Shown here: piece by piece, positions 42,372-62,736 of the stretch
Numbering within the stretch: position 1 is the stretch's first letter
Layout: every line of letters begins with the position of its first letter
NCBI GenBank assembly: GCA_038214755.1
Contig: JBBQRQ010000018.1
Coordinates: 1-62,736 of the forward strand
Length of the DNA: 62,736 nt
Origin: Verrucomicrobiota bacterium
GTDB taxonomy: Bacteria; Verrucomicrobiota; Verrucomicrobiia; Limisphaerales; CANJXF01
Direction: 5' to 3'
Position numbers and translations under genes: made by a program
Notes under the pieces: generated by a model
The model's input: the letters and a program-made list of their open reading frames with translations, nothing else
Databases searched by the model: none
Told to the model about the DNA's origin: nothing

Positions 42372-44489
42372 TCACTTCGACGCCTTTTCCAACGCATCCA
42401 AAACTATTTGCGGTGTCAAAATCGGCGGAAGCACGATGACCTCGCGGGCAGAATCGCGCGGGTAAACCAAGACCAGCGGAACTCCAGCGCGCTCCTGGCG
42501 TTTTAATTCAGCGGCGATGCGCGGGTCTTTATCCGTGAAATCTCCAAGGAACGCGACGGCGTTTATCTCTTTTAATTTTTTGCGCGTGGCCGGAATTTCC
42601 AGGCTTGTCGCCTTGTTCACCTGACAGTTAACACAGGTGTCGGCGGTGAAATCGACGAGCACGGGATGGCCTTGACCGCGCGCTTTCTCGACGCCTTCGG
42701 GACTCCACGGTTGCCAATCGATTCCATCCGCGCCTTCCTTCAGATTATTTGTGCTCGCAGAAAACGTTGCGGCCGTGCGCCAGTTCAATTTTTTTTCCAA
42801 AGCGAAAACATAACCCGCGCCAATAAGTAAAAAACAGATGACAATCGCCAAACCTTTTCGCGTGCGACCGCGTTGCACGAACTCACCCCAAACCCACGCA
42901 GCGGTGGAAAGAACAACGAGAAACAAACCGAGCCAGAGCACGCCGGATTTTCCGAAGCGCGGCGCGGTGAACCAGAAAATCCAAACGGCGGTGGCGAGCA
43001 TGGGAAAGCCCATTGCGATTTTAAATTTCTCCATCCACGCCCCAGGTCGCGGCAAAATTTTCAACCACCCGGGTTTCCAACACAAAATTACAAAGGGCGC
43101 GGCCAGTCCCAAACCGGCAGCGAGAAACATCAACAGAATGACCGCCGGTTTTTGCGTGAACGCGAAACCAATGGCGCCCGCCAGAAAAGGCGCGGTGCAT
43201 GGCGTCGCGAGAATGGTCGCTAAAACGCCATTGAAAAACGCGCCGGAGAAACCATCTTTGGCGCTGAGATTTCCCGCCGCGCCCATCACGCTGCCGCTCA
43301 AAGTGATTTCAAAAAGCCCGAAAAGATTCAGCGCGACCAGAGTGATCAAGACGGTCAGCACGACGCGGAATGTTTGGTTTTGCAGAATCATCCCCCAACT
43401 CGCCAGCCCGCCCGCTTTTTGCACGGCGATGGCCAACGCCGCGAGAACCGCAAACGAAACCAGAACGCCAACGCCGTAAAGCAAACCCAACGTCCGGACG
43501 CGCGCCGGAGATTCTTTGCTCTGGTTGACAAAACTCAAAACTTTCAGAGCGATCACCGGCAGAACGCACGGCATGATGTTTAAAATTAAACCGCCGAGAA
43601 AGGCGGAGAGCAGCATCAACCAAAGAGATTTTCTCCGGGTGATGACCGAACCGGCGCTGCTCGAGGTCGATGGTTGCAGGTTTACTTCGTAGCCCACGAC
43701 TGGTTGTCCATTTTCCAAATGCACCAGCAGGCCGGAGATTTCCTTCGGCCAATCGTTGCCTGTTTTTTTAATTTCTTTTTGCAAGCGCACCGTGCCAGCG
43801 GGGGAGGAAAGGGGTTTCGTTTCGCCGGAAATTTTTGCGTAACGATTTTTGTAGGGGAAAAAATCCCAGTCGCCCGGCAAAATGCCGGAAAGATTGACGA
43901 CCAAATTCGCGACAGAGTTCTCGGATTGTTCGAGCGAGGCCGCAATGGAAAAATCAAATTTCTTTCGCGGCAATTTTTTCTGCGCGGCGTTGATCAACTC
44001 GAAATCAAGCGATGGTTTGGAATCATTTCCGACGGAAAGTTTTGCGGCCACGGTTTTGTTTCCGAGCACGCAAACGGTTTCGCATTCCTGCCAGGAAATA
44101 TTTGCGCTGATTGTTTTTTCTCCGAACGAAACGTTCGCGGAAATTTTCAGAGGGGCCACCAACACTGCTTCATTGTTAAAAACGTAAGTGACGAAAGTTT
44201 CTTTTCCGGCGGGCAAAACGTCTTTTTCCGGAATGGGCCATTGCACGTCTCCTGCGGTGATTCCCTCCGGCAAGGTCCATTCAATTTCCGTGGCGGAGCC
44301 GGAGTCGCCGGCATTCGTCCAGTAAGTGTGCCAGCCGGAAGGCATTTGCATTTTCACCGCGGCGAGAATGGTTTCACCGGGCCTGGCTGATTCTGCCGAC
44401 AACATAAGTTGTACCTGAGTCTTGCTGGCAAAAAGATTTGTGGCGTTGCAGCAGCAGAGGAGAAAAAAAAGTTGCGCGGCGCGTTTCAT
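42372..44489 (-). CDS. dsbD: protein-disulfide reductase DsbD family
   Basis: Motifs GWHTYW, CETVC, LNIMPCVLPV, ATPCTAPF, and a thioredoxin-like DFTADTCVNC. Confidence 0.88.
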   Translation of the reverse strand: MKRAAQLFFLLCCCNATNLFASKTQVQLMLSAESARPGETILAAVKMQMPSGWHTYWTNAGDSGSATEIEWTLPEGITAGDVQWPIPEKDVLPAGKETFVTYVFNNEAVLVAPLKISANVSFGEKTISANISWQECETVCVLGNKTVAAKLSVGNDSKPSLDFELINAAQKKLPRKKFDFSIAASLEQSENSVANLVVNLSGILPGDWDFFPYKNRYAKISGETKPLSSPAGTVRLQKEIKKTGNDWPKEISGLLVHLENGQPVVGYEVNLQPSTSSSAGSVITRRKSLWLMLLSAFLGGLILNIMPCVLPVIALKVLSFVNQSKESPARVRTLGLLYGVGVLVSFAVLAALAIAVQKAGGLASWGMILQNQTFRVVLTVLITLVALNLFGLFEITLSGSVMGAAGNLSAKDGFSGAFFNGVLATILATPCTAPFLAGAIGFAFTQKPAVILLMFLAAGLGLAAPFVILCWKPGWLKILPRPGAWMEKFKIAMGFPMLATAVWIFWFTAPRFGKSGVLWLGLFLVVLSTAAWVWGEFVQRGRTRKGLAIVICFLLIGAGYVFALEKKLNWRTAATFSASTNNLKEGADGIDWQPWSPEGVEKARGQGHPVLVDFTADTCVNCQVNKATSLEIPATRKKLKEINAVAFLGDFTDKDPRIAAELKRQERAGVPLVLVYPRDSAREVIVLPPILTPQIVLDALEKASK

Positions 44490-44715: not shown

Positions 44716-45855
44716 TTGGCTCCTAGACTCCGCGCCGTGCGTTCTGATTCTTCCTTTCAATGGCTTCGAACCGGCGATGAGGCTTTCGCCGAGATGTTGG
44801 AGGCAATCGATGGCGCGAAAATTTCCGTCCGGTTGGAGATGTATATTTTTCATTCGGGCGGGATTGGAGACCAGTTTCGCGACGCGTTGATTCGAGCCTG
44901 CCAGCGCGGAGTGCGGGTCCATGTTCTCATCGATGCGCTCGGCTCAATCGCGCTGGCCGAAAGTTTTTGGACAACGCTCCAGACCAGCGGTGGTCATTTT
45001 CGTTGGTTCAATCGATTGAGCCTGGCCCATTTGGGCATGCGCAATCATCGGAAAAGTCTGGTGTGCGATGAGGCTATCGCCACCGTGGGCGGATTTAATA
45101 TCGCTCCGGTGTATCAAGGCGACGGCCTCGCTGCCGGTTGGCGCGATTTTGGGCTGAAAATTTCCGGCCCGCTCGCCCAACATCTGGCGGCGGCATTTGA
45201 CGAGATGTTCGCCATTGCGGAATCCAAGGCCAAGCCGTTCGCGCCTCTTCGTAAATCGCGCCAGTCGAAAATCGTGAGCGTGCGTGAGGCAGAACTTTTA
45301 TTGAGCGTGCCGGGTCGAACCCGCAATCCGATGAAGCGGGCGTTGCGGATGGACCTGGGGCGCGCGCGCGATGTCCAAATTATTTGCGCCTATTTTTTGC
45401 CGAACTGGAGAATCCGCCGCGATCTGCTTCGGGTGGTGCGGCGTGGGGGGCGAGTGCAACTCATTCTGGCGGGCAAAAGCGATGTGCCGCTTTCACGACT
45501 GGCCGCGCGAAGTTTTTTTACGCGGTTGCTCCGTGGGGGAATTGAGATTTACGAATATCAACCGCAAATTTTGCACGCGAAAATGTTCATCATTGACAAG
45601 GCGGTTTACGCCGGGTCGTCCAATCTGGACACCCGCAGTTTGGAATTGAATTACGAACTGCTCGTCCGGTTGACGGAGCCAAAAACGGTGGAGGAAGCGC
45701 GCCTGATGTTTTCCGGTGACTTGCCACATTGCGAGAAAATAGATCTGGAGCTTTGGAAAAAGACACGAACTTTTTGGGATCAACTTAAAGGGCGTTGGGC
45801 GGGTTTTCTTTTGGCGCGAGTCGATCCGTATTTCTCACGGCGGAAGTGGAAGTAG
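44716..45855 (+). CDS. clsB: cardiolipin synthase B / phospholipase D family
   Basis: Two HKD motifs (RNHRKSLVCD, LHAKMFIID) and GSSNLD; no N-terminal TM helices. Confidence 0.8.
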   Translation: MAPRLRAVRSDSSFQWLRTGDEAFAEMLEAIDGAKISVRLEMYIFHSGGIGDQFRDALIRACQRGVRVHVLIDALGSIALAESFWTTLQTSGGHFRWFNRLSLAHLGMRNHRKSLVCDEAIATVGGFNIAPVYQGDGLAAGWRDFGLKISGPLAQHLAAAFDEMFAIAESKAKPFAPLRKSRQSKIVSVREAELLLSVPGRTRNPMKRALRMDLGRARDVQIICAYFLPNWRIRRDLLRVVRRGGRVQLILAGKSDVPLSRLAARSFFTRLLRGGIEIYEYQPQILHAKMFIIDKAVYAGSSNLDTRSLELNYELLVRLTEPKTVEEARLMFSGDLPHCEKIDLELWKKTRTFWDQLKGRWAGFLLARVDPYFSRRKWK

Positions 45856-47452: not shown

Positions 47453-48607
47453 TCATTTGATCTCAAGCGTCCATGCTTCTGGATAAATGAATTCTTGGTC
47501 AAGAGCACTGCAAAGCCTAAACTGGAGAAAATTGGTGCCTTTCAATAACCTCACTGGGCTCGAAAATACAATATCGCCTTCGTCATTTTTTTTGCCATCA
47601 GCCAGCGGCAGCCATGTTTCTGCATTCCTTTCAGAGCTTGTAATTCGAAATTCAATGGCACCGGAGAAGCTTTGATTATAATCGTTTTCTGAAATTTCAA
47701 TTCTCAGTTGCGCAAATTCTTCTGGGGGCCACGGGTCGATTCTTGCGCTCAAAACGAAGTTGTCGGGTAACTGCCAAAAAGTGCTCCTTTTAGCAATCAC
47801 TTCGGACTCTTCCGTTTCATTTCCTCGCTTTGCACACGCGTTCCGAAGCATATTAGTTAATTCTTCTGCTTTCTCTTCAAGGGCGATATCTAAGGCAGTT
47901 TTCCCATCGAGGGACTTGACATTTACATCGGCTCCAGCTTCCAGAAGCACTCGCGTTACATCTGCATCTTTGCTTCTGGCTGCAGCCATCAATGCCGTCC
48001 ATCTGCCATAGCCAATATGGCTAGGATCAGCACCAGTCTTCAGCAAGAGACTTACCATGTCCAATCTCCCCTGAAGCGCCGCTGACGCCAAGGCACTGTC
48101 TTTTCCTGATTCTGCATTCACAACGGCCCCAGCTTGCAAGAGAGCTTCTACAACTTTTATGTTTTTGCCGTCCACAGCCGCAACGAGAGGCCCGCGCATG
48201 AATCCCTTGCCAGAAGAGAGATTCGGGTCTGCACCCTTAGAAAGCAAAAATTTCACGATCTCTTCCTTCCCAGACAAGGCGGCATACTCCAATGCCGTTG
48301 CGCCATTCTTATTGTGCTTGTTAATGTCGGCACCTAGTTGCAATAATAACTGAATATGTTCGAGTGTTTTGGCGAGCATCAACGCAGTGAAACCGTGCTG
48401 ATCGCGAACATTCACGCCTGCTCCGCATTTTACTAATTCACGAGTGGCTCCGATCTGATTGTGTTCGGTTGCGAAATGTAACGGTGTCCAGCCGTCTTTC
48501 TTGGCATTTACATCTGCGCCTGCAGTGACAAACCGTTGAATAGCTAATACATCACCTCGCTTGGATGCACTCCATAAGTCTTTTGGACCGAACAAACTTT
48601 CAAGCAT
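47453..48607 (-). CDS. ankyrin-repeat protein, putative immunity for the orphan Rhs-CT
   Basis: Repeated GWTPLH, GFTALM, GATALE and GKTALD units plus a C-terminal non-ankyrin domain. Lies immediately downstream of the toxin. Confidence 0.85.
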   Translation of the reverse strand: MLESLFGPKDLWSASKRGDVLAIQRFVTAGADVNAKKDGWTPLHFATEHNQIGATRELVKCGAGVNVRDQHGFTALMLAKTLEHIQLLLQLGADINKHNKNGATALEYAALSGKEEIVKFLLSKGADPNLSSGKGFMRGPLVAAVDGKNIKVVEALLQAGAVVNAESGKDSALASAALQGRLDMVSLLLKTGADPSHIGYGRWTALMAAARSKDADVTRVLLEAGADVNVKSLDGKTALDIALEEKAEELTNMLRNACAKRGNETEESEVIAKRSTFWQLPDNFVLSARIDPWPPEEFAQLRIEISENDYNQSFSGAIEFRITSSERNAETWLPLADGKKNDEGDIVFSSPVRLLKGTNFLQFRLCSALDQEFIYPEAWTLEIK

Positions 48608-48621
48608 AAAATTTAGCAAAA

Positions 48622-50433
48622 TTACTTAAGCCTCTTACCTGGAAAGCTTTGCAAACTAAACACAACGGCAACCACTCCATGTCTTGTGGCTTCTCTGCCA
48701 ACGATTACACGAGCATCTTTGATCGCTTGAGAGTTCTTCCCTCCCGTTAGAGCCACGAAAGCCGCGACTTTGGCAAGCTGATGCTTTGCTGCATACTTCA
48801 GAATTGCGTCCAGTTGCCCCTTCTTTTTCGTACCGCCATAAGCAATAAGTGTTTGCTCTCGCAATTTGATTTCCACGGTAAGCCATTCTTTATTCGGGGA
48901 ATTGTCTGCGCCAATTGGATCGCGCGGGCCGATTATTATGTCAGGTCGGCGTATTTTGTTTCGGATTTTTAAAGCTTGATTATAGTTATGACAGCTAAGG
49001 CCGTTGTCAACAGGATTGCCCGACTCTTCATGAACACCGACTTCAAAGTGAAACCATCCAATATCGGCGAGGCAAAGTGTGCTTTTGATAATACCTTCAA
49101 ATGCTCTACCACCCTTAACATCCTTCCAAGGATCGAAATTCCCGGGCAAGTATGCTTTGATTAAATCAGTGAACTTGCTTACAAAAAAGGATTGTACTTT
49201 GTCTCTAGCCCAACTTCTTGCGTAGGTGATAGCCGCAGTTTTGAACGCAGCTAATCCTTCCTGTATCAGACCAACAATATTGATCTCGGGCATGGAAAAT
49301 AATCCACTCAAATCACGCTGGATATAACCATTATTGTTTGCATAGATATAAGGGGGCAGGGTTTCTGGAAATTTGAAATCACCTCCTGCCGGATCCCTAC
49401 TTGTAAATCTCCCCAACCGTGCGTCATATTCTCTCGCCCGCATGTTATAGAGGCCGCTGCCTTCTTCCAGCCACGCTCCATGGAAACGGAAGTCTCCTCC
49501 CGTCCCACTCGGCGCATTGGTCGTGCCGCTCTGACTCCGCACATTTCCAAATCCATCGTAGTTGAAATTCGCCACCGTCGCCGTGCCCGCGCTGTTGGCC
49601 AGTGCCGCCACACTCCCCATCGCATCTTCCAAATAATAAATCCGATTGCCCGCTCCATCAAAGCGCAGCAGCGGTTGATCCCCCACATACACATACCCTT
49701 GCTGCACTGTCCCGCCCGCGTTCGCAATCAGATGCGGACTTTCCAGATCACTGCCCGGTGTCGGCGCAACCAACCATCGCCTCACCGTGCCAGCGGAGTT
49801 GGTCGAAATCGTTCTGCGCCCATTGGCATCATGGACGTAGCTCACCCAAGTTGCTCCGTTGGTCACCGCAATCACCTGATCCGATGTGTTGTAACCGAGA
49901 TTCAACGTGGCGCTGTCACGGGTGATTGACGTCACACGCCCGCCATCGTCGTAGCCATAACTTTCAGCTTGGATTCCGCTGGAAGCATTCGTCACTCCCT
50001 TGATGCGATAGCCACCCGATACACCGTTCGTCAACGTCACTCCGCTTTTCACGAGGTTTGTCCGATTCCCAGCCGCATCGTAACCGTAGCTGATTTCATC
50101 CGTCACAGAGCCGCCACTCGCTTTATAGACTTCATTAGTCAATCGCCATGCCGCGTCATACTTCAATTCCACGTAAGTCCCGTCCTCACGCGTGATCCGG
50201 TTCGGTTCACCGCCCCCGTTGCGCACATACCCGAAGGACGCCAGCACGCTCCCGCCACTTGTCTTGTGCACGATGTTCGTCACCCGGTCGCGCCAATCGT
50301 ATTGCCACTCCGTCACCACTCCATTGGGCAACGTCCGCTTGGTTCGCCGTCCCACACGATCATATTCCAACTTCGTATTCCCGTTGAACGGATCAATCAC
50401 GTTCGTCACGCTCCCCGACAAATCATATTTCAT
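48622..50433 (-). CDS. orphan Rhs core fragment with PD-(D/E)XK-like toxin tip
   Basis: ~1.1 kb near-copy of the main Rhs core end (YNMRAREYDARLGRFTSRDP), then DLSG, then a 225-aa tip with RPDIIIG...VEIK. Confidence 0.88.
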   Translation of the reverse strand: MKYDLSGSVTNVIDPFNGNTKLEYDRVGRRTKRTLPNGVVTEWQYDWRDRVTNIVHKTSGGSVLASFGYVRNGGGEPNRITREDGTYVELKYDAAWRLTNEVYKASGGSVTDEISYGYDAAGNRTNLVKSGVTLTNGVSGGYRIKGVTNASSGIQAESYGYDDGGRVTSITRDSATLNLGYNTSDQVIAVTNGATWVSYVHDANGRRTISTNSAGTVRRWLVAPTPGSDLESPHLIANAGGTVQQGYVYVGDQPLLRFDGAGNRIYYLEDAMGSVAALANSAGTATVANFNYDGFGNVRSQSGTTNAPSGTGGDFRFHGAWLEEGSGLYNMRAREYDARLGRFTSRDPAGGDFKFPETLPPYIYANNNGYIQRDLSGLFSMPEINIVGLIQEGLAAFKTAAITYARSWARDKVQSFFVSKFTDLIKAYLPGNFDPWKDVKGGRAFEGIIKSTLCLADIGWFHFEVGVHEESGNPVDNGLSCHNYNQALKIRNKIRRPDIIIGPRDPIGADNSPNKEWLTVEIKLREQTLIAYGGTKKKGQLDAILKYAAKHQLAKVAAFVALTGGKNSQAIKDARVIVGREATRHGVVAVVFSLQSFPGKRLK

Positions 50434-51914
50434 AGAAGTCGTCGTTTCCTGGAAATTTTTACAGGTTTTGGTGTCCCTTGAAGTTTAGCGACAGTCAAAC
50501 GCCCTCCTTGATTATCTATGAGGTCGAGGCCATTCTTCTTCAACCAATAGTTAACATTGTGACCTGCGCTATCGCGAATATCGAAGAGCGCTCCTGCTTC
50601 GATCAACAGTTGGGTCAGGTGCGGAGTCAATGAAAACGTTAGAGGCGTTCGGCCTTTCCGGTCACGGCGGTTTACATCCGCTCCATGATCCAGTAAGCAT
50701 TTTACAACCTCAATCACCCGATTATTCTCCGAAACATTATTGATCGGCTGAGTTGCAATTAGGTTCGCGCCACTCGGAAATTTTCGATGAATAAACGTGG
50801 CTGCTGGATTGCTTTGCACGGCGTAGAAGAGGGCCGTCCAACCGTTGTCATCCGCACGTTCAACTTCTGCGCCTTTGGAAATCAGAAACTGAACCAGTTC
50901 TGCGGAACCACATGCACTGACGGCGTCCATCAGCGCCGTTTCTCCCGACATATTTGCCGAGTTAGAATCGGCTCCCGAATCGAGAAATTTTTTAACTAAT
51001 TCGAGATACCCCAGCATACAGGCAGTCTGAAACGGATCGACGCAGTTTTGGTTCAAGGCCTTTGGAATTGCACCGGCTTTGAAAAGTATTTCGGCAATAT
51101 CCGGACGTTCTTTGCGCAAGGCAGCCTCCAAAGGCGAAACACCTTCGATTTCTACATTCACTTCGGCGCCTGCTCCCAATAACTTCTGCACAAATTCCAA
51201 TGACCCAACTTCGATGGCCCGATCCAAGGGACTCCACTTAAATTGATTTCGAGCATTCACATTCATTCCAAACGTCAGATACAAATCAAAGCTGCAAGAA
51301 TCCAGATTCTTAATGGCATCCAGAAGCTTTTCCAAATCGGATTTCGGGCGTGGTTTAGTTTTAGAAAGCGGGGCCAGCAGTGCGGCAGACTCCTGTTGTT
51401 TGTATTCGAGTGCGTTGTCATAAGCCGTTCGATTGATTTCATCAACTGCCAATGGATCAGCGCCTGCCGCTAATAACATGTTAATGATTTCCAACCGACC
51501 CTCTCTGGCGGCGCGAATTAACGGCGTCGCTTTTGCAATATCTCTTTGGTCAACATTGGCTCCTGCACCCAAAAGCAGCTTAATCCCTTCGGGCAGACCG
51601 TTTGCTGCCGAGTAGATCAATGGAGGGTTCAACGCATTTCCCTTACTTGGAGATGCCCCGGCTTCAAGGAGGATCTTAACTCCTTTGAAATCCTTATTTT
51701 TCAAAGCTACGTTAAGGGGGGTATCCCCCCAATAATTGACGTCGTTTACCTCAACCCGAGCTGCGATCAACAGCTTCAGAATAGTATGCGATTTAACACG
51801 GACCGCCTTGAAACAACAGGCTGGATCCGGCAAGACACCATCTTTTATCAGCCGACTTACTTTTGATGCATTTTGTGTTTCAATAGCAGAATACAATTCG
51901 GAAATTGCGCTCAT
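50430..51914 (-). CDS. ankyrin-repeat protein, putative immunity for the main Rhs toxin
   Basis: Many ankyrin repeats (GDTPL, ATPLI, WSPLD, GETALM, GWTALF, GRTPL); RBS AAGGTGAGG. Confidence 0.88.
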   Translation of the reverse strand: MSAISELYSAIETQNASKVSRLIKDGVLPDPACCFKAVRVKSHTILKLLIAARVEVNDVNYWGDTPLNVALKNKDFKGVKILLEAGASPSKGNALNPPLIYSAANGLPEGIKLLLGAGANVDQRDIAKATPLIRAAREGRLEIINMLLAAGADPLAVDEINRTAYDNALEYKQQESAALLAPLSKTKPRPKSDLEKLLDAIKNLDSCSFDLYLTFGMNVNARNQFKWSPLDRAIEVGSLEFVQKLLGAGAEVNVEIEGVSPLEAALRKERPDIAEILFKAGAIPKALNQNCVDPFQTACMLGYLELVKKFLDSGADSNSANMSGETALMDAVSACGSAELVQFLISKGAEVERADDNGWTALFYAVQSNPAATFIHRKFPSGANLIATQPINNVSENNRVIEVVKCLLDHGADVNRRDRKGRTPLTFSLTPHLTQLLIEAGALFDIRDSAGHNVNYWLKKNGLDLIDNQGGRLTVAKLQGTPKPVKISRKRRLL

Positions 51915-51929
51915 ATGTTTCCCTCACCT

Positions 51930-54900
51930 TCAATCAACAATCACCAACACTATCGGAATCGCTCCCATCCTTAACCCTTCTTTAAGAATTGTGGCTTTAA
52001 TAACTGCCTTCGTTGGGGCATTTCTCCCTTTGGTTGCACAAATCATCAATGCAATCTTTGGATGGGTATGTTTTGCTGCATAGTTGATCATTGCGTTAAA
52101 CTGACGCGGATTCGTCTGGGGTTTCGCATACTCTCTGTAAAGACCTGCCAGAGTAGATTTTATTTCGCCAACTACCCACGTTTTTCCTGACATAGGAGCA
52201 TTTCCTCCGAGAATAAAATCGGGACGTGGGACGCGAAGTCGGACATACTTCATTAGCTGTTTGACATCAATTCCTTCTTTGCAGTTAAACCCATTGTCTT
52301 GCGGTTCCCCAGCGGGACTCACCGGAACTTCTAAAAATAATTTGTCCGGTGCGTGTAGTTCATCACAGATAAACTTGGATATCGTTTTCGAGAATTCCAA
52401 TCCCTTTTTCCAATCTGAGGGAAAGTCAGGTAACGGAAAAAGGTTCTTCACTTCCTTGAGCACTTCATCTTTAACTAAATTGCCAATTGTTTGAAGCGCC
52501 TTCTGTCTTCCCTTTGCTACGGCCACGCCTCTGAGTGCTTGAAGACCACTATTGATCAGCGATGTAATGCTGACCTCGATTAAAGTGAACTGTCCACTCG
52601 GATCGCGGTAAATCAATGGATTGGAATTCGCAAAATTATACGTATGTAATGATTCCGGAATTTGAAAGTTTCCTGGGTCAGCATCCCTACTCGTAAACCT
52701 GCCGAGTCTTGCGTCATATTCCCGCGCCCGCATGTTGTAGAGGCTACTGCCTTCTTCCAGCCATGCGCCATGGAAACGGAAATCTCCACCTGTCCCACTC
52801 GGCGCATTGGTCGTGCCGCTCTGACTCCGCACATTTCCAAATCCATCGTATCTGAAACTCGCAACCGTTGCCGTTCCAGCGCCGTTAGCCAACGCCGCCA
52901 CACTTCCCATCGCATCTTCCAGATAATAAACGCGATTGCCAGCAGCATCGAAGCGCAGGATCGGTTCATCACCCACATACACATACCCTTGTTGCACCGT
53001 TCCGCTCGCGTTCGCTATCAAATGCACACTTTCCAAATTACTGCCCGGAGTCGGCGCGACCAGCAGCCTTCTCACTGTCCCAGCCGAGTTCGTCGAGATT
53101 GTCCGTCGCCCATTCGCATCATGCTGATATTTCACCCAAGCACTTCCGTTCGTCACTGCAATCACCTGATCCGCCGTGTTGTAACCCAGGTTCAACGTCG
53201 CGCTGTCGCGAGTGATAGTTGTGACTCGACCACCATCGTCATAACCGTAACTTTCAGTCTGAACTCCACTCGACGCATTGGTCACTGCCGTGATCCGATA
53301 GCCGCCGGAAACACGGTTCGTCAACGTCACTCCGCCTTTGACCAGATTCGTCCGGTTCCCCGCCGCGTCATACCCGTAGATAATCTCCTCTGTCACCGAG
53401 CCGCCGCTCGTTTTGTAAACCTCATTGGTCAAGCGCCATGCCTCGTCATACTTCAATTCCACATACGTCCCATCCTCTCGCGTGATCTTGTTTGGTTCAC
53501 CGCCCGTGTTGCGCACGTAACCAAATGAAGCCAACGTTGTCCCGCCTGACGTTTTATGGGAGATGTTGGTCATACGATCCCGCCAGTCATACTTCCACTC
53601 CGTCACGACGCCATTGGGCAGCACTCGTTTGGTTCGTCTGCCCACCCGATCATATTCAAAGCCAGTGTTCCCGCTGAAGGGATCAATCACGTTAGTCACG
53701 CTCCCCGACAAGTCATATTGATAGCGCGTCACATACGCCGTGCCACCCGCCGATGCTTTGTTGGTCATACTGGTGATTCGATCCAGCACGTCCAGCCCAT
53801 ACCGCACCGTCGCGCCGGATGGATAATTGATCCCGACAAACCGTCCCGCCACATCAGATAGATTCGTCGTCGTTCCCGTGTTGTCGCTCATCTGGGTCAC
53901 TGCATCGTTGCCATTGAAACTAAACGTCGCTGTCTCCCCAATCGTGGAACTACGATTGGTCAACCGTCCAGCCTCATCAAAAAAGTTGGTCAGATACACC
54001 CCGCTCGGCAGCCGCGCCCCGTTCAATCGATTCTCTGCGTTGTAATAATTCGTCAGATAATTCCCATCCCCAAACCGAATCGTCTTCACGTTATCCAGAT
54101 CGTCGTAAGAATACGTGAGCTTCTCACTGGTAGGACTCAGCACATTGGTTAACGCGCCGGTGTCCAGGTCATATTGATTCGTCCAAAGATTGCCACCCAA
54201 ATCCGTCGCCGTCAAAAGCTGGCCGAGATCGGTGTAGGCATAACTGCGAACACGCCCTCCTTCATCCGTCACTGTCGCCGGATATTCCTCCGCTTCCTGT
54301 TCCGGCGTCGTCAGGCCAGCCAGATACGTCGTGCTATTCGTCGCCGCATTCGCCCCCGTCGCTCCCGCGCTCGCCCGACGAATCGTTTGCAGCGGCAAGC
54401 CGTGTGCAGACGTGACACTTTCTGTGACGCGAGCCAATACATCTGTCACCGAGCCTGAATTGCCGCACGCTGAACAGGCTCCCGCCGCGTCGGAGTAAAG
54501 CCAGAAATTCGTGCCCGTGGCATTCGTCATCGCCTTGAGACTGCCGCTCGGCCAGTAACCAAACCAAGTCACTTGTCCCAGCGCATTCGTCTGTGAAGTT
54601 TTTCTTCCCGCCGCATCGTAACTGTAAGCAGCATATCCGCCCGTGGCCAGATTCGTCGAGGACGTCAACCAGCCGACCGCATTGTAAACACGCCGCGTCA
54701 CGACGCCAATGGAGTTGGTTTCATACTCCAACCGTCCGTTCACGTCATAGGCAAAGCCCGGCGTCGAGCCGTTCGCGGTCACCCATCCACCCAATCTACC
54801 TTGAGTATCGAATTGCCGTTCCATGTGTCCAATCGTGGGGCCGTCCACACTGCTCCAATCCGAAAACGTCTCGTAATTGTTGGTCAAGGTAATGCCATGC

Positions 54901-57900
54901 CCATAATCCGCCGTTCGCTCCCGATTTTGCGCATCATAACTCGTGACACTCGTTCCGCTGCCATCCCCGAGCGTGGTCAGATTACCATTGTCATCGTAAC
55001 TATTCGTTGTGACTTTGCTCAGTGAATTAGTGAACAACTTCAAATTTCCGATGGCATCGAAACCATAACGATTCGTTCCAAATTTATCGCCGTCCGAATC
55101 CACCAAACCAAGCGAATTGAACGTGGTGGAAGAAATCAAATTCCCCGCTTCATCTCTCGTTTCCGTAAGATTGCCGTTTGCGTCATAGACGTTGGTAATT
55201 ACGCCCCCCGTCGGCAGAACCACACTGGTTTGATTATCAAACGCATCCCAGGTAAACCGAGTCGTGTAAGTCGCGGGATCAGCCCCCACCGGATACGGAA
55301 CCGTCACCGAAAGCACATTGCCCCGCGCATCGTTGGTGAAGTAGGTCGTGTTCGTCAGCGCATCCGTGGAGGCGAGCAGATAGCCATTGGTATCATATTG
55401 AAACGAAGTCGGATGTCCCAACGCATCGACAATATTCGTGACGTTGCCCTGCGAATCATATTTGTAGATCGTTGGCTGGCCACTGCGGTCATAATGCACC
55501 TCCCGGCGACCCGCAATGTCGTGTTCAAAACTGTTGGTGCGACCTGCAGCATCAATGATCCCAGTCAGCCGTCCGCTGTCATCATACAAATTGCGAGCAA
55601 TGGGAATCCCGCGCGCATCTTCAATTGACGTGATGTAATGCGGAAAGCTCGGATGGTCGTAATGATATTTATTAGTGAGATAGGAACCGGTAGCTCGATC
55701 CACCAGTTTAAAAACCTGAATGAGGTTGCCTGATGTGTTGTTATAGACATATCGAACGATGGGTAGGCCGGAACTCCCCGAGTTTGGATCGCGGACAGCA
55801 ATAATTCGGTTCTCTCCGTCGCGCTCAAAAAGCGTTGCTCGTGTGACGGCACCGGTCGGGTTGTAATGAGTAATATCATTGGGATTAATCGCGATGGCGT
55901 TGCCACTTCGTTGTAGAATTCGCGTGAGTCTTGGCTTGTTAGCATGGGGTTTAATATAGTAGGCCTTAAACGGAACGCCAAAGTAGTTCTCTTTATCCAA
56001 CAAGGTGTAAGTAAAAGAATTCTCTCCCGGAAGGTCGCGACTGATTTCATATTGCGTTCCATCGGAAGTGGTCAAAACCCATTGGGAAAAATCATATCCA
56101 TCCATCGGCACATAGTTTCCCGCTTTCCATACCGGTGGATTAAATAGAGCGAAAAGCGTGTTATCACCCGCACCATCTTTGGTGGCAGGATTAGTGGTAG
56201 TTAGAGTCGCAAGGACGCCTGGTGGCGGAATCCACTTGGCATCGTAACAACTCGGACAATCTAAAGCAGCAGAATTAGTCAGCGTGAATTGGAAGGTCGC
56301 CCGTTCCCCATTGGGCAGGGTTAACGTGACATTGCGACCACCACCTGTGCGCAGACTGAACGTCAACTCATCATCGGGACCATCCAGACTCGAGAGCGCT
56401 TCTACGTTGGTTCTCTCTTCGTCCAGCACCACATCCATATCATTGAGAGCATAAGTCCAATTGAAACCAAAATCGCCCTGCTTCGTATTCAAAGAATTGT
56501 AAGTGCGAATCACGGTCAGGGGAATGCCATTGACCGGAATAACCAGATCCTGTTCGCTGAAACTGAATTGCCCGATCTTAAGTTGAGTATCGAGTGAGAA
56601 CCGCACCATAGCAGTGGCTTCTGCGCCACCCCCTTGGACGGTTAGAACCAAATCGTAAATTCCGTTCGGGATGGCAGAGAGGTCAAGATCTCCCAGCGCC
56701 CCATTTGTGTCTCCGCCGGAGTGGAAACCTTGAGCATCAAGAGGCAGCATCGTCAGGTTGGCGAGAACATTTTCGAGATCGTCAGGATAATGAAGGGAGA
56801 CTCGGTAGGAGACGGGATCATCATCGTAGGCTCGCCCCACTAAAGCGAAATGACCTTCTCTAATGACGGGATTGTTAGTCACCAAAACGTCGGTTCCTCC
56901 GACCATAAATACTGTGCCGACTAAATTGCTAATGACCGCCTCCGGCAAATGAGTTCCACTGGAACTATTCGTGATGACCACCAGCAACGTGCTCGACCGG
57001 TTGGAAAGGCCGTGGTTATCAGTAGCGACCGCAACGATACTATAATAGCTAGCCACATTTGTGCTCCAAGTGAAACTAAAGGCGGGATTAGTAGATTGAT
57101 TCACTTTGTTACCGTTGACGAAGAGATCGATGTTCGTGACGGTTCCATCGTAGTCCTTCGAAGTTCCACTTATGGCAATGGTAGATGAAACGTTGGTCGT
57201 GAATCGATTGACAGGGGAGCCGATTTGCACTGTCGGTTTGGAACGGATTATGACTGTTACCCAGGCATCGACCGCAGCCCCAGTTGAATTAGTCGCCGTA
57301 TAGATAAAGTTATCCGTCCCGTAAGTGTTCGGGAACGGGGTATATGTCAAGTAGGTTCGGTCTTGGCTGACGGCCACTTCGCCTAGCCCGGCCCCTCGCT
57401 GGGCAATTTTTTCGATACGCAGGCCTGCGGTGAGATCATTAGTGAGGACGAAGAATTCCACGGCAGGACTATTGACCGTGAGAATATAGGTGTCATCCTT
57501 GACATTGACGATATTGTTACTGTCGATAACTCTGATAATTACCGGGGAAGAGACTCCTTGAACATTGTTGTCATCAGTCGCGGTCGCGGTAAGGAAGTGG
57601 ACCCCAAAGCCTATGCCACTTATCCAACTGCCAGTCCGATTGGTCGAATTCGTCGGGGTTCCCGATGCCACGTAAGCTCCATCAGCAAAAAACATCACAG
57701 AGGTTATGGCGGAGTTGGTATCTCCTCGGATTGCCTGCGCGTCAATCGTGATACTGGTCGGATTGGTGAACGTTGTATAACTGGATGGATTGGTGATGGT
57801 GATAGTCGGTACGGTCGGAGGATACGGTTTTCCTACACTCCACCGGCCAATGTTATTGCTCACTTTCTGGGATGCTCCGGCGTTAGTAAAACATCCTCCG

Positions 57901-60900
57901 ACAAACAAATCATAGGCATTGGTGACCGGCCCCTGCAAAATTGCCGATGAAAAAACATGGTCATAGGTACCAAAGCCCGAAACACCTTCATCCAAGCTAC
58001 TCCATGTCCATGTTTGGCTAGCTTCACTCCACGTAGCACGGGCGACATAAAGTGCCGACACCATGTTTGTGCCGTTCCAAACTTCAGTAAACTCGCCGCC
58101 CACGAAGACCTGATTCTCTCTGAGGACAATGGTGAACACGCTCGGCGCGGCTTGACTCTCAGAATCATCAATGCCCCCACTTACCCCAATACCCAATGTG
58201 CTCCAGCGATTCTGTTCCCACTTAGCAATACAATTAGCGTTGGTATCACCCCCCGCTTCATTAAAATCCCCACCCACAAACAGGTTGTCCCCGCACGCGA
58301 CCAAGGCGCGCACCCTTCCTGAGACACCGCTTCCCAGATTTGTCCATGTGGTACCATTTAATCGCGCAATGTAGTTTGCATCGGAGTTGCCGCCAGCATT
58401 CGAGAAATCACCTCCAATATAAACCGTGTTGCTGATTGACGTGATTGCGCGAACAGGACCACTTAATGGGCTTCCAACAGGAACCCAGTTTGTGCCACTC
58501 AATTTGGCAAGGTACTGGACATTCGTGTCGTTTCCGGCGGAGGTAAATTCACCTCCAATGTACACCTCCGATCCAACCAACGCGATGGCGAAGACAGCCG
58601 GAGTGCCGCTGTAACCAAGTTCATTTCCAATCGCTACCCAATTTGTTCCATTCCACCTAGCAATATGGGAAACCCGATTACTGCCGGAATTTGTAAAACT
58701 GCCTCCGGCGAAGATATTAGTGCCTTCGACGGTAATTGCATACACTACGCCGTGGAAGCCAGCCGCCATCGCGGACCAATTCGTACCATCCCACCGCGCA
58801 ATGGATTCAGCCGAGACTGATCCAAAGTGCGTAAGGCTACGACCGCCCGCAAACAGAGATCCATTAGGTCCAGGAGTGAGTGCCCAAATCGTGGGAAATA
58901 TACCAGGTCCAGGATTGGCGAAGACCGGATCCCAGAACCCCCCGCCGTCTGTGGGCAACTGCTCATTAATGGTGATGTTGACCGGGTCTGAAAGAGTTTT
59001 TGCATTTCCGTTATCGGTCGCCTTTGCAGTCAAAACATAAGTGCCCGGCTCCCAACACCACTTGGTAATACTGTATGGATCGCTTGGATCATGGCCGAGT
59101 AATTTTCCGTCGATATAGAAGGAGACATTGGTAACGGAACCTGGAGAGGTGTCCGTTGCGGTAGCCCTTATCGTAATATCCGAGCCTGCATGAAAGAAGG
59201 AGTTGTTTGTCGGATAGGTAATCTGAATCGTCGGACTGGGATTAGTCGAGGTAACGGTAAAATAACTGATTGGAGAATTGCCCGTTGCCCCACGATTATC
59301 GGTGGCAACCGCGGTGATCGGATAAACCTGATGGGTTCGATCATTCCAGGTAAAAGTGTAGTATCCGCCCACCGGGCTCGTGACAGTTTGGATCAAGTTT
59401 GTGCCATGATAAAAGTCAACCTTGCTGATTGTGCCATCGCTGTCCGAAGCTGTCGCCGACAGAGTCACGTTAGCAACTTCCGTAAAGACAGCATTGTTCG
59501 TGGGACTAACGATGCTCACGGTAGGCGGCGCGTTCACTGTGATACTGACGCTGGCGGAAGTAGCGCTAGCACCGAGAGTGTTGGTCGCTTTCGCAGACAA
59601 ATTATAAATTCCACTTGTGACATTCGTCCACAATAGAGAATAGCTGTTACTCGCTCCGGCAGTTCCATTGCCCAAAAGCGTCGCCCCGTTATAGAATCCA
59701 ACCCCCGTTATGGTTCCGCTAGCAGTTGTGGCCGTCGCGGTTAAAAGAATATTCGTCGGCGAGAGAACAAATAATTGGTTGTTGGTCGGCGAAACCATAG
59801 AAACGCTCGGTCCCGCGCCGGATAGTGTAACCGTCACTTGAAACGTGCCCGTCACGGGATCATCCCCGCCGACAATGGCGTTCCCGGCAAACCCGGCGAC
59901 AGTCCTGGCAATAAATGGCGGACCGATCCCGCCACCGCCACCGCCACCGCCGCCGTCTGACCAAGCAGCTTGCACACCCCACCTACCTGGGGTATTACTG
60001 CGCCCGGTGAGATGGATTAGGGCCGTGCCCTCCACACTCAAAAGATTAGTGGAACGGCCAGTTAGAATTATCCCCGCAGCATCGACGCTGCAAATTTTAT
60101 TAGCATTGGTAAATATCAAAAAGGTATCTACCCAGGGAATCGGCGGATCAAATTGGAGAGGGATGTAAGAAACTATATTACTCGAACTAAAGCCCGCAAA
60201 GTCCCCAGAATTTGTCGAGCTCGCTTGACCGGAACCAATAAAATCGAGATTTGTGACCAGGCTCAGGCCGGAATTTGAATTACACGTGATGACGCCGTTA
60301 AAATTGAAGCTGCCATTGATCAAATTCGTATCCCTGATGTTATGCACGGTGACGCTTATCGTCACGACGCCGGTTCCAGTCGTGGCGGGCGTGAAATAAA
60401 GCGTGCCGTTGGTGTTAGGATTTGTGTAGCTGACCGAGAGCGTGGGAATCAGGTTAGTATCGCTCGCGCTTGCGGTTAGGTTGAGAACCCCTAGTTCCGC
60501 ACAGCCGGGGGCAATTCCCGTAAGCGCAATAGAATGAGATCCCGACCCGGCCGCAACACTCAGATTCGAGATTGAATCCAACAAGGGCGAGCAGACGATT
60601 AAGGAGGCGTCGGAACTGATAATTGAACCCGACGAATTTGAAACAATAACCGAATAATTACCAGCGTTAGTTGCGTGAAGATCACAAAGGATGAGGGTAG
60701 GACCGGTTTGCCCAGAAAGATTTGTTCCATTGAAACGCCATTGATAGGTGATAGGCGAAATACCTCCAGCGGTTACCTTGAAGGCCGCGCATCGGCCCTT
60801 GGCTACAACCTGATTGGTCGGGTGCGAGAGGATGGAAAGCTTCCAAAGAGTTTCCCCAGAATCCAGAATGCCATTGCCGTTATGGTCTTCTTGATAATCG

Positions 60901-62594: not shown

Positions 62595-62595
62595 G

Positions 62596-62736
62596 CACTA
62601 CTGTCCGGTTTAAAAGCCCGGTAAACACGGGTGATATCGAGGGTCGAGCGATTCCGAGGGTGGCGGCAGTTGAGCAAGGGCCTGGAAAATGGGCGTTTTC
62701 TCGAAAAGTGTGAGGCTCAAAATCTGTAGAATGGTG
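62596..62736 (-). mobile_element. IS4-family element end (transposase C-terminus and terminal inverted repeat)
   Basis: Minus-strand frame TILQILSLTLFEKTPIFQAL...PGF* (stop at 62610), followed by the terminal sequence ACCGGACAGTAGTG. Confidence 0.8.

What the first reader, a model, noticed from the sequence alone, without database searches (positions are those of the whole stretch)
49230..52604. Both Rhs toxin tips begin with a mature type IV pilin-like N-terminus (F1...E5) at the autocleavage site
Seen: the main toxin reads DPSGQ|FTLIEVSITSLINSGLQAL (Phe codon at 52589) and the orphan reads DLSGL|FSMPEINIVGLIQEGLAAF (Phe codon at 49299). Established: Rhs/TccC cores self-cleave after the residue following DPxG, and mature type IV pilins and pseudopilins begin Phe+1 with Glu+5 and an apolar helix (G|FTLIE). 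Both released toxins would therefore start like processed pilins, and F1/E5 is kept although the two tips are otherwise diverged. Inference: a pilin-mimic entry peptide, generated by the Rhs protease rather than prepilin peptidase, that uses the target's T4P/T2SS machinery or inner membrane to deliver a nuclease. No T6SS (VgrG/PAAR) genes are visible in the window. Caveat: the helices are less hydrophobic than true pilins.
Basis: partly seen in the sequence, partly recalled or inferred. Interest (0 to 1): 0.85.

Follow-up and report, generated by a model that had tools for sequence, protein, structure and literature searches.

The report
Pilin-like cap on Rhs toxin tips
Two Rhs toxin tips in this window start, right at the self-cleavage site, with the same five-residue cap as mature type IV pilins, and related Rhs proteins carry a whole pilin-type helix there, pointing to an undescribed membrane-engaging leader on these antibacterial toxins.

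Summary
Both tips read DPSGQ|FTLIE and DLSGL|FSMPE at the stated codons. In 104 homologous tips, F+1 occurs in 84, S/T+2 in 98 and E+5 in 79.

The tips are an unnamed PD-(D/E)xK nuclease family. Ankyrin immunity genes follow them. The genome shows no T6SS sheath or PAAR hit.

The window's own helices are pilin-like only through residues 5-6. Pilin HMMs do not hit them, their hydropathy is 0.85 and 0.70 against 2.9 for the genome's pilins, and profile similarity vanishes once the cap is removed. The first ~35 residues lie outside the nuclease fold and outside the predicted immunity interface.

New here: in a sister Rhs clade (core end ...SLHKY..DPxGx), 47 of 99 tips begin with a hydrophobic helix. 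Of these, 17 also have F1 and E5. Curated pilin/pseudopilin models match starting exactly where the Rhs core model ends, on many unrelated toxin domains. One relative's tip aligns residue 1-34 to solved type IVa pilins.

So a pilin-type N-terminus made by Rhs autoproteolysis is a real, recurrent design, and the window carries a cap-only, amphipathic version. Its role as a membrane-engaging leader is my inference. Use of the target's pilus machinery has no support.

The parts
51930..62477 (-). Full-length Rhs/YD polymorphic toxin gene (3515 aa from the first TTG). It has Ig-like domains and beta-propeller-like repeats, then the YD shell, the Rhs-associated core and the toxin tip.
   Evidence: RHS_repeat 6e-56, Big_7, DUF6531; TIGR03696.
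52590..52604 (-). Junction DPSGQ, the end of the Rhs-associated core and the presumed aspartyl autocleavage site after Q.
   Evidence: TIGR03696 model position 76/76 ends on this Q; the two Asp (D347 and D374 in orphan numbering) are invariant in 64 sequences. Cleavage position taken from the literature.
52575..52589 (-). Cap FTLIE of the main tip (toxin residues 1-5).
   Evidence: Family counts.
52485..52574 (-). Rest of the N-terminal leader of the main tip (residues 6-35): an amphipathic, polar-faced helix.
   Evidence: hydropathy, conserved N7/Q13/Q17/R20; pLDDT below 50 for residues 1-24; nuclease matches start at residue 33-36.
51930..52484 (-). PD-(D/E)xK nuclease core of the main tip (residues 36-219, stop codon included). 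Motif RPDF...GEIK.
   Evidence: P123, D124 and K144 at least 90% conserved; pLDDT above 90 from about residue 80; NucC Z 6.5, EcoRII Z 6.3 and others.
50430..51914 (-). Ankyrin-repeat protein (494 aa, no signal peptide by eye): the likely cognate immunity protein of the main tip.
   Evidence: Ank_2 1e-49; complex score 0.72 against best control 0.00.
48622..50433 (-). Orphan Rhs fragment (603 aa): 373 aa of core closely similar to the main gene, followed by a diverged tip of the same family.
49285..49299 (-). Cap FSMPE of the orphan tip, preceded by the junction DLSGL (49300-49314).
47453..48619 (-). Second ankyrin-repeat protein (388 aa): the likely immunity protein of the orphan tip.
   Evidence: Ank_2 9e-41. 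Assigned by position only.

Best explanation
The locus is a T6SS-independent Rhs/YD polymorphic toxin with a displaced orphan tip. Each tip is followed by an ankyrin-repeat immunity gene. Both tips belong to an unnamed PD-(D/E)xK nuclease family.

The first ~35 residues of each tip form a separate N-terminal leader. It consists of a cap F-[ST]-hydrophobic-hydrophobic-E and then an amphipathic helix with a conserved polar face. The cap is identical in pattern to the mature N-terminus of type IV pilins. It would be exposed by the Rhs aspartyl autoprotease, not by prepilin peptidase.

In a sister Rhs clade the same position carries a full hydrophobic helix, often of the pilin type, in front of many unrelated toxin domains. 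I therefore read the element as a membrane-engaging leader of the released toxin.

Proposed mechanism (inferred): as in pilins, Glu5 can neutralise the free N-terminal amine, so that the N-terminus can enter the target's cytoplasmic membrane. The fully hydrophobic versions would anchor the toxin there. The window's cap-plus-amphipathic version would start membrane association or translocation of a nuclease that must reach the cytoplasm.

Shown here: the anatomy, the conservation, the recurrence, and the separation from the nuclease fold. Inferred: the cleavage register and the membrane function.
For: Family-wide conservation of the cap:
- F+1 in 84, S/T+2 in 98 and E+5 in 79 of 104 representatives.

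The leader lies outside the catalytic domain:
- The 30 best structural matches are all PD-(D/E)xK nucleases and align to model residues 33-36 onward.
- AF2 gives pLDDT below 50 for residues 1-24 of the tip and for residues 367-412 of the whole orphan.
- The predicted ankyrin interface (score 0.72, best control 0.00, runs agree in at least 79% of contacts, partner pLDDT at least 84) names toxin residues 35-219 only.

Recurrence on other tips:
- A metagenome scan for DPxGxFTLIE+hydrophobic gave 24 Rhs-junction loci with 17 distinct tips. 7 have a helix with KD about 2 or more, and 13 are not of the nuclease family. These tips are mutually unrelated beyond residue 35 by BLASTP.
- TIGR03696 ends 0-1 residue before F in 11 of 12 loci. 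TIGR02532 (IV_pilin_GFxxxE) then starts at its F position in 6 of 12, above its cut-off in 3. GspG, GspH, ComGC and PilA models also hit.
- An unbiased sample of the sister clade, queried with core residues only, gave a hydrophobic start in 47 of 99 tips. F1&E5 occurs in 17 of those 47 against 6 of the other 52.
- GspG matches in 6 of 94 scanned and Rhs_assc_core in 94 of 94.
- P0187's tip aligns residue 1-34 to residue 1-34 of solved type IVa pilins; all 15 hits are pilins or pilus proteins, best E 5e-4.

Within the window's own genome:
- The family leader HMM finds the genome's pilins as the best non-self hits: 81 of the top 100, in register.

Not needed for cleavage:
- F+1 occurs in only 36 of 99 and E+5 in only 38 of 99 in the sister clade.

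Published precedent for hydrophobic encapsulated tips:
- PMC13018210 (passages).
Against: - No experiment or computation here shows membrane binding.
- Amphipathicity of the window's family is only modest: max muH 0.444 against 0.376 +/- 0.098 for shuffles.
- Beyond the five-residue cap there is no significant profile similarity between the window's leader and pilins (Prob 1.7% without the cap). There is also none with the sister-clade leaders (best 15.4 bits, below the 20-bit background). Common origin is therefore not shown.
- Low pLDDT may mean that the leader folds only in a context not modelled, such as inside the shell, on DNA or in an oligomer.
- The cleavage register is inferred. In this family the residue after DPxG is variable (L 28, E 24, R 10, M 10, G 9, Q 8 of 104), unlike the published [L/W/F]. 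Cleavage after F cannot be excluded.
- Sequences in the clade samples are kin, so the Fisher p of 0.004 overstates independence.
Confidence: 0.45

Rival explanations
1. First reader's mechanism. The released toxin mimics a processed pilin and is handled by the target's type IV pilus or type II secretion machinery (platform, ATPases or peptidase) to enter the cell.
For: The cap equals the pilin F1-T2-L3-I4-E5. The window's genome has 101 N_methyl hits reading G|FTLIELLVV.... Relatives carry helices that curated pilin and pseudopilin models recognise out to model positions 38-44 and that align to solved pilins. Pilin-handling machinery is widespread; a prepilin peptidase is present in this genome.
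Against: The window's helices cannot sit in a membrane or a filament core like pilins: KD 0.85 and 0.70 against 2.9, with conserved N7/Q13/Q17/R20. Pilin HMMs do not hit them. Pilin topology leaves the C-terminal domain in the periplasm, which does not explain delivery of a nuclease whose predicted immunity protein has no signal peptide. No co-occurrence or genetic evidence was obtainable.
Confidence: 0.15
2. The cap acts in cis before release. It would be the P1'-P5' side of the autocleavage site, or a strand or helix that holds the unfolded toxin inside the Rhs shell, and would have no role after release.
For: It sits directly at the junction and is kept across unrelated tips. In this Rhs group the P1 residue is unusually variable, so specificity might have moved to the primed side.
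Against: Within the sister clade only 36 of 99 tips have F+1 and only 38 of 99 have E+5. 0 of 21 other Rhs ends of the phylum have both. Cleavage therefore does not require it. A cis role does not explain 20-45 residue matches to pilin models. AF2 of the orphan does not dock the segment onto the Rhs plug (pLDDT below 50), though that is weak evidence.
Confidence: 0.2
3. The leader is simply part of the nuclease, for example a DNA-binding or dimerisation helix, or the first-helix Glu of PD-(D/E)xK enzymes. The pilin resemblance would then be a coincidence of five residues.
For: It is conserved together with the nuclease in all 9 genome loci whose Rhs core is at least 39% identical. Many PD-(D/E)xK enzymes use a Glu on the first helix (recalled, not tested).
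Against: Structural matches to nucleases begin at residue 33-36. The first 24 residues have pLDDT below 50. The same cap stands in front of metallopeptidase-like and other unrelated domains.
Confidence: 0.12
4. Historical accident. Pilin genes are so abundant in these genomes that recombination occasionally grafted pilin 5' ends onto Rhs tips, and the cap is a neutral remnant.
For: There are about 100 near-identical pilin 5' ends per genome. Some family members keep pilin-like residues out to position 11 (P0171, P0007).
Against: F, S/T and E are as conserved as many core positions across clusters at 50% identity or less from several phyla. That indicates purifying selection. The graft is always in exact register with the cleavage site.
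Confidence: 0.08

Closest known systems
Rhs/YD polymorphic toxins with C-terminal aspartyl autoproteolysis (P. protegens RhsA, PMC8765631; Tc toxin TcC; Bacillus WapA, recalled)
   Same: YD-repeat shell, Rhs_assc_core ending PxxxxDPxG-x, two invariant Asp, variable encapsulated tip, downstream immunity gene, orphan tip-immunity module.
   Different: No PAAR or VgrG in the protein, and no VipB or PAAR hit in the genome. The residue after DPxG is variable rather than L/W/F. The tip starts with a conserved pilin-type cap, which the papers I searched do not describe.
Type IV pilins and type II secretion pseudopilins (class III signal; Pfam N_methyl PF07963, NCBIfam TIGR02532)
   Same: F+1, S/T+2, hydrophobic +3/+4, E+5. 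In relatives the whole alpha1-N helix is present, including the G14/P22-type positions seen in the alignment to solved pilins.
   Different: No leader peptide with Gly at -1 (9 of 104). Exposure would be by Rhs autoproteolysis. In the window the helix is amphipathic and polar, and no pilin model hits it. There is no pilin globular domain.
N-terminal 'entry' parts of delivered toxins: CdiA-CT cytoplasm-entry domains and the transmembrane helices of prePAAR T6SS effectors (recalled from the literature; only PMC8765631 passages seen)
   Same: Works-like analogy: a delivered toxin carries a segment separate from the catalytic domain that deals with the target's inner membrane.
   Different: Here the segment is the very N-terminus created by self-cleavage and is pilin-patterned. 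No sequence relation was tested.
Bacterial teneurin-like proteins (PMC13018210, passages) and the Rhs pore-former Tse5 (PMC10684867, abstract in a search listing only)
   Same: YD shells that enclose hydrophobic C-terminal fragments. The teneurin-like proteins have no obvious delivery machinery, and one has a predicted transmembrane stretch about 25 residues after the catalytic Asp.
   Different: No pilin-type motif is reported ('pilin' 0 occurrences). The window's tip is a soluble nuclease with only a cap and an amphipathic helix.
Restriction-endonuclease-fold toxin domains (Tox-REase families of PMC3482391; CdiA-CT nucleases 4g6u and 4zqu)
   Same: PD-(D/E)xK motif and fold. 4zqu_A scores Z 4.6 and 4g6u_A Z 4.4, while NucC scores Z 6.5. 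Ankyrin immunity (Imm-ank) is known for polymorphic toxins.
   Different: No Pfam or NCBIfam family matches any of 73 members apart from the Rhs parts.

Membership tests
Rhs/YD polymorphic toxin | YD/RHS repeats forming the shell | tested here: met
   PF05593 6.3e-56 in the main protein and 1.9e-17 in the orphan. AF2 of the orphan shows a beta-hairpin spiral with pLDDT about 90.
Rhs/YD polymorphic toxin | Rhs-associated core ending in PxxxxDPxG-x, with the two catalytic Asp | tested here: met
   TIGR03696 1.8e-15, model 1-76/76, ending on the Q before F. D347 and D374 invariant in 64 sequences. The orphan has DLSGL in place of DPxGx.
Rhs/YD polymorphic toxin | Self-cleavage actually occurs at that bond | not testable with these tools
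   Position inferred from RhsA (PMC8765631).
Rhs/YD polymorphic toxin | Variable C-terminal toxin followed by an immunity gene; orphan modules | tested here: met
   Tips 28% identical. Ankyrin genes follow each tip. Predicted complex scores 0.72 against 0.00 for the best control.
T6SS-delivered Rhs effector | PAAR, VgrG or prePAAR on or near the protein, and a T6SS in the genome | tested here: not met
   No PAAR or VgrG domain in the protein. No VipB or PAAR hit in the 97%-complete genome. Neighbouring genes are housekeeping.
Type IV pilin / pseudopilin (class III signal) | Phe (or another hydrophobic residue) at +1 and Glu at +5 | tested here: met
   FTLIE and FSMPE. 84 and 79 of 104 in the family.
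Type IV pilin / pseudopilin (class III signal) | Short leader ending in Gly at -1, cut by prepilin peptidase | tested here: not met
   Q and L at -1. Gly at -1 in 9 of 104. The 'leader' would be the whole Rhs protein.
Type IV pilin / pseudopilin (class III signal) | About 20 hydrophobic residues after Glu5 (alpha1-N) | tested here: not met
   KD(+1..+21) is 0.85 and 0.70 (family mean 0.36) against 2.9 for the genome's own pilins. N7, Q13, Q17 and R/K20 are conserved.
Type IV pilin / pseudopilin (class III signal) | Match to curated models (PF07963, TIGR02532) | tested here: not met
   No hit at E<=10 or E<=1. The tips are not among the 101 genome hits. The own-pilin HMM gives 3.1 bits and none. 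Relatives L104, L032 and L086 do pass TIGR02532.
Type IV pilin / pseudopilin (class III signal) | N-methylation of residue 1 and assembly into a filament | not testable with these tools
   -
PD-(D/E)xK (restriction endonuclease-like) nuclease | Core fold | tested here: inconclusive
   The 30 best of 48,161 chains are all such nucleases, but Z is only 6.5-4.8. Foldseek finds nothing at E<=0.001.
PD-(D/E)xK (restriction endonuclease-like) nuclease | Catalytic D ... (D/E)xK motif | tested here: met
   RPD124F ... GE142IK144. P123, D124 and K144 are at least 90% conserved in 73 sequences.
PD-(D/E)xK (restriction endonuclease-like) nuclease | Membership of a named toxin family (the Tox-REase Pfam families) | tested here: not met
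   No Pfam family other than the Rhs ones in 73 members.

The most novel reading that the evidence does not exclude
Rhs autoproteolysis stands in for prepilin peptidase. A large group of T6SS-independent Rhs toxins releases cargo whose N-terminus is a mature pilin alpha1-N, either complete or reduced to its F1/E5 cap as in this window. The cargo would then be taken up by the target's own pilin-handling machinery or membrane-reinsertion pathway, the route by which retracting pili dissolve subunits into the inner membrane. That would be a new toxin entry route shared by many unrelated toxin domains.
Probability: 0.15. Interest if true: 0.9.

Novelty: new variant of a known kind. Interest (0 to 1): 0.68.

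Why it matters
How Rhs and teneurin-like toxins that lack a T6SS leave their shell and cross the target's membranes is an open question. A 2026 paper on bacterial teneurin-like proteins states this openly (passages).

This analysis finds a conserved element placed exactly at the self-cleavage site. It ranges from a full pilin-type transmembrane helix to the five-residue cap seen in this window, and it is shared by nucleases, peptidase-like domains and other toxin domains. That gives a concrete, mutable handle on the entry step.

The analysis also defines an unnamed PD-(D/E)xK toxin family, with 154 cluster representatives at E<=0.001 and ankyrin immunity.

Finally, it warns annotators that pilin N-terminal motifs inside long Rhs proteins are not artefacts.

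Tried and rejected
- **Family models on the tips.** Pfam and NCBIfam scans of the tips with and without the five junction residues gave nothing. The 73 members gave only Rhs families.
- **Foldseek against the PDB.** No match at E<=0.001. The weak list was already rich in PD-(D/E)xK nucleases, and VIA-align confirmed the trend.
- **AF2 of the whole orphan.** This was meant to show whether the cap docks onto the Rhs plug. The junction and leader came out at pLDDT below 50, so it decided nothing.
- **hhalign of the family leader against the genome's pilins.** Prob 93%, in register 1-32. Without the first five columns Prob falls to 1.7%, so I dropped the idea that the window's helix is a recognisable degenerate pilin helix.
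- **Family leader HMM against the sister-clade tips.** Best score 15.4 bits, below the 20-bit background, so no homology claim is made.
- **My pilin HMM built from 44 near-identical own-genome pilins.** It is too narrow. It gave -1.6 bits to the P0187 tip, which nevertheless aligns to solved pilins. Pfam also missed P0187.
- **Exact DPxGxFTLIE pattern in 401 genomes of the phylum.** Only the window itself matched. The exact variant is therefore rare in the reference genomes searched, and no taxonomic pattern could be drawn.
- **A general Rhs property?** Rejected: 0 of 21 junctions in the phylum sample have F+1 with E+5.
- **Earlier findings of this scan.** Nothing by place, words or sequence.
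- **Literature.** 'pilin' occurs 0 times in the held text of PMC3482391. The search rhs + pilin-like + polymorphic toxin + prepilin gave 4 papers, none on this. The search N-terminal methylation + rhs + toxin gave 0 papers. A fourth search gave nothing on a pilin-type tip. Subscription-only papers were not searched.

Full report
**1. What is at the coordinates**

The minus strand holds four genes in a row:
- a 3515-aa Rhs gene (51930..62477);
- an ankyrin-repeat gene (50430..51914);
- a 603-aa orphan Rhs fragment (48622..50433);
- a second ankyrin-repeat gene (47453..48619).

The main protein reads ...NSNPLIYRDPSGQ|FTLIEVSITSLINSGLQAL. The orphan reads ...NGYIQRDLSGL|FSMPEINIVGLIQEGLAAF.

The curated Rhs-associated core model TIGR03696 ends at its last position on the Q just before F. 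Two Asp residues in this region are invariant in 64 relatives. By position they correspond to the catalytic pair mutated in RhsA. In P. protegens RhsA the map stops after the residue that follows DPxG, and the consensus is PxxxxDPxG[W/L/F] (PMC8765631, passages; also bioRxiv 2024.02.26.582050, passages). Cleavage before F is therefore the standard inference. It is still an inference, because in this family the residue after G is variable (L 28, E 24, R 10, M 10, G 9, Q 8 of 104).

**2. Is the F1/E5 pattern more than chance?**

The two tips are homologous along their whole length (28% identity, E 2e-22), so on their own they are one data point.

An exhaustive HMMER search of 1.84 billion cluster representatives with the main tip found 154 proteins at E<=0.001. 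104 of the listed representatives align across the junction. Among them:
- D, P and G of DPxG are nearly or fully invariant (D and G in 104, P in 103);
- F+1 is present in 84;
- S/T+2 is present in 98;
- an aliphatic residue is at +3 in 102;
- E+5 is present in 79;
- N+7 is present in 67, Q+13 in 64, L+16 in 69 and R/K+20 in 77.

The enrichment is strong.

It is not a general Rhs feature. None of 21 junctions read from the best loci of the phylum sample has F+1 with E+5 (the model hit 97 of 151 genomes, 527 matches). The other Rhs ends of this genome start DFIAV and YDLQF.

**3. What the tips are**

No Pfam or NCBIfam family matches the tips or any of 73 members, apart from the Rhs parts.

An AlphaFold2 model built on 73 sequences has mean pLDDT 82, with values above 90 from about residue 80. 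Aligned against 48,161 PDB representatives, the 30 best matches are all PD-(D/E)xK nucleases: NucC Z 6.5 (rmsd 4.0, 141 aligned), EcoRII Z 6.3, R.BspD6I Z 6.2 and others. These Z values are only middling. Foldseek alone found nothing significant.

The sequence carries the classical motif RPD124F...GE142IK144. P123, D124 and K144 are conserved in at least 90% of members.

The ankyrin protein encoded next is predicted to bind the tip. The score is 0.72 against 0.00 for the best of three controls. The runs agree in at least 79% of contacts and the partner's pLDDT is at least 84. That mark was reached by 116 of 157 solved complexes and 2 of 215 mismatched pairs. Ankyrin immunity proteins are a known class (PMC3482391, passages). 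By eye, the ankyrin proteins have no signal peptide, which fits a cytoplasmic target.

The genome (97% complete) gives no hit to the T6SS sheath (VipB) or to PAAR. The neighbouring genes are housekeeping.

**4. Is the window's N-terminus a pilin N-terminus?**

Only for five or six residues.
- The genome has 101 matches to the Pfam N_methyl model, most reading G|FTLIELLVVIAIIAILAGLLLPAL. The two tips are not among them.
- Direct scans give no hit, even at E<=10 or E<=1.
- An HMM built from 44 of the genome's own pilin starts, run without filters, gives at least 15 bits to 92 ORFs. It gives 3.1 bits over positions 1-6 to the main tip and nothing to the orphan.
- Kyte-Doolittle hydropathy of residues 1-21 is 0.85 and 0.70 (family mean 0.36), against 2.9 for the pilins.
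- Profile-profile comparison of the family leader with the pilins aligns 1-32 to 1-32 (Prob 93%). Without the first five columns it finds nothing (Prob 1.7%).

In the other direction, an HMM of the family leader searched against all 42,515 six-frame ORFs of the genome finds the pilins as its best non-self hits. 81 of the top 100 are pilins, aligned in register, at 13-20 bits against 43-45 bits for the two tips. That mostly reflects the shared pentapeptide.

The leader is moderately amphipathic (max muH 0.444 against 0.376 +/- 0.098 for shuffles). It lies outside the nuclease fold, since matches start at residue 33-36. It is modelled with pLDDT below 50, both alone and in the context of the Rhs end. 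It is not named in the predicted immunity interface, which covers residues 35-219. That absence is uncertain, not negative.

**5. The unexpected part: relatives with a real pilin helix at the same place**

*A first relative.* A search with the orphan's core end returned mostly the same tip family. It also returned P0187, whose tip starts DPSGE|FSLGETMLALAVTGILASTAMPAYQ.... Its first 40 residues hit only pilins and pilus proteins among all PDB chains (15 hits). Residues 1-34 align to residues 1-34 of mature type IVa pilins, with best E 5e-4. The main tip's first 50 residues hit nothing at E<=10. P0187's catalytic part is a different domain, shared with three other proteins that have other linkers.

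*A metagenome scan.* I scanned the metagenome collection for DNA encoding DPxGxFTLIE plus one hydrophobic residue. This gave 106 stretches, which sort as follows:

| Class | Loci |
|---|---|
| NuoE-like proteins that happen to contain the string | 50 |
| Ordinary prepilins with G or A at -1 | 20 |
| Rhs junctions (17 distinct tips) | 24 |
| Other | 8 |
| No translated match | 4 |

Of the 24 Rhs junctions, 19 were found by my pattern. Five more were added by reading them and by the TIGR03696 hit.

Of the 17 distinct Rhs tips, 4 belong to the window's nuclease family. Seven have a strongly hydrophobic continuation, for example FTLIELLVVITIIAILAAIVVSG. Six continue otherwise. Beyond residue 35 these tips are unrelated to each other by BLASTP.

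In 11 of 12 loci scanned, TIGR03696 ends zero or one residue before the F. In 6 of 12, TIGR02532 (prepilin-type N-terminal domain) starts at its F position right after. Three of these exceed the cut-off of 16.3 bits: L104 at 22.3, L032 at 18.4 and L086 at 16.4. GspG, GspH, ComGC and PilA models also hit, out to model positions 38-53. Pfam N_methyl scores 13.8-19.5, below its cut-off. One of these tips is an Aspzincin_M35-type peptidase (2e-13).

*An unbiased sample.* The scan above selected for FTLIE. I therefore queried with core residues only (180-333 of the L066 protein, tip excluded). This returned 104 proteins. A junction was found in 101 of them, and 99 have at least 21 tip residues. In these 99:
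- the core end reads ...SLHKYxYxxxDPVNxxDPxGx, close to the window's ...SLHTYNFANSNPLIYRDPSGQ;
- 47 start with a hydrophobic stretch (KD at least 2 over +6..+21);
- F+1 is present in 36, E+5 in 38 and both in 23;
- both plus the hydrophobic stretch occur in 17.

The cap goes with the hydrophobic helix: 17 of 47 against 6 of 52 (Fisher p 0.004; these sequences are kin, so this overstates independence).

The precomputed Pfam column shows many different toxin domains on these tips: PF15648, PF15649, PF14040, PF08808, PF01764, PF14113, PF15637, PF14521, PF14412, PF14424 and others. I did not check the names of these accessions, except PF14521 = Aspzincin_M35.

NCBIfam on 94 of the 104 (the 10 longest were dropped for a size limit) gives Rhs_assc_core in 94. 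At E<=0.01 it gives GspG in 6, ComGE in 3, PilA in 2 and GspH in 2.

*Downstream genes.* By eye, the gene after two of the hydrophobic-helix tips (L086, L066) begins with a signal-peptide-like segment followed by Cys. The gene after a nuclease-family tip (L037) is an ankyrin protein without one. This small hint suggests the fully hydrophobic versions act from the membrane or periplasm.

**6. Reading**

A pilin-type N-terminus placed exactly at the Rhs self-cleavage site is a recurrent, selected design in this group of Rhs proteins. Because the residue before F is not Gly, only the Rhs protease could expose it.

The window's own tips carry a reduced form: the cap plus an amphipathic, polar-faced helix. 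This cannot behave like a pilin in a membrane or in a filament.

The cap is not needed for cleavage, because most tips of the sister clade lack it. It is also not part of the nuclease fold.

My preferred explanation (confidence about 0.45) is a membrane-engaging leader of the released toxin. The free amine of F1 would be neutralised by E5, as established for pilins (recalled knowledge). This would let the N-terminus enter the inner membrane. The hydrophobic versions would anchor there, and the amphipathic version would start association or translocation of a cytoplasm-acting nuclease.

The rivals are:
- use of the target's pilus or T2SS machinery (0.15);
- a cis role inside the shell or at the cleavage site (0.2);
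- a part of the nuclease itself (0.12);
- a neutral remnant of recombination with pilin genes (0.08).

**7. Novelty**

Rhs toxins, orphan tips, ankyrin immunity, PD-(D/E)xK toxins and hydrophobic encapsulated tips are all known. I found no description of a pilin-type N-terminus on Rhs tips. In detail:
- 'pilin' occurs 0 times in the held 300,000 characters of PMC3482391;
- 'pilin' occurs 0 times in PMC13018210;
- two targeted searches gave 4 irrelevant papers and 0 papers;
- a fourth search gave nothing on this point.

Subscription-only literature and supplements were not seen. I rate the finding a new variant of a known kind. The window itself shows the weaker, cap-only form. The stronger evidence lies in relatives from metagenomes.

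Noticed in passing
window 62300-62736 (-): The giant Rhs gene has no ATG or GTG start. The first start codon after an in-frame stop is TTG at 62477. More open frame, interrupted by two stops, runs to the contig end at 62736. No signal peptide is visible, so the true N-terminus and the export route are unresolved.
   Followed up: partly
G000, many contigs (e.g. C23:36542-36622, C11:21627-21704): The genome holds 101 matches to the prepilin N_methyl motif, most with the near-identical start G|FTLIELLVVIAIIAILAGLLLPAL. A prepilin peptidase is on C86.
   Followed up: partly
P0187 (889 aa, metagenome protein): An Rhs protein whose tip is a type IVa-pilin-like alpha1-N helix, followed by Gly/Ala-rich hydrophobic stretches. 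It ends in a C-terminal domain with the motif ...FSQSSVNG...DNTRL, shared with P0194-P0196. Pfam gave that domain no name.
   Followed up: partly
G000:C57, Rhs end in a 4079-aa frame: A further Rhs end in the same genome reads DAFGL|VALVEYSVNLGKQSAS.... This is a leader-like start (x-x-L-V-E, then polar/aliphatic alternation) on a 108-aa tip. I did not test whether it is related to the window's leader.
   Followed up: no
L014-L117 (50 metagenome loci): NuoE-like proteins contain ...GETDPSGT FTLIEVECLGACDRAP.... This matches DPxGxFTLIE by coincidence and is a trap for motif searches on this junction.
   Followed up: yes
L001, L003 (genome contigs): Two Rhs loci with this tip family sit in a MAG titled 'uncultured Bifidobacterium sp.' on contigs of 228 and 142 kb. 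Their cores are 64-67% identical to the window's. The label looks odd for this kind of gene, and binning or naming may be wrong.
   Followed up: no
window 44716-45855 (+) and 42372-44489 (-): The genes beside the toxin locus are ordinary: a PLD-type phospholipase/synthase, DsbD, PurE (AIR carboxylase), a sulfatase and a UvrD helicase further on. No secretion-system genes are present.
   Followed up: yes
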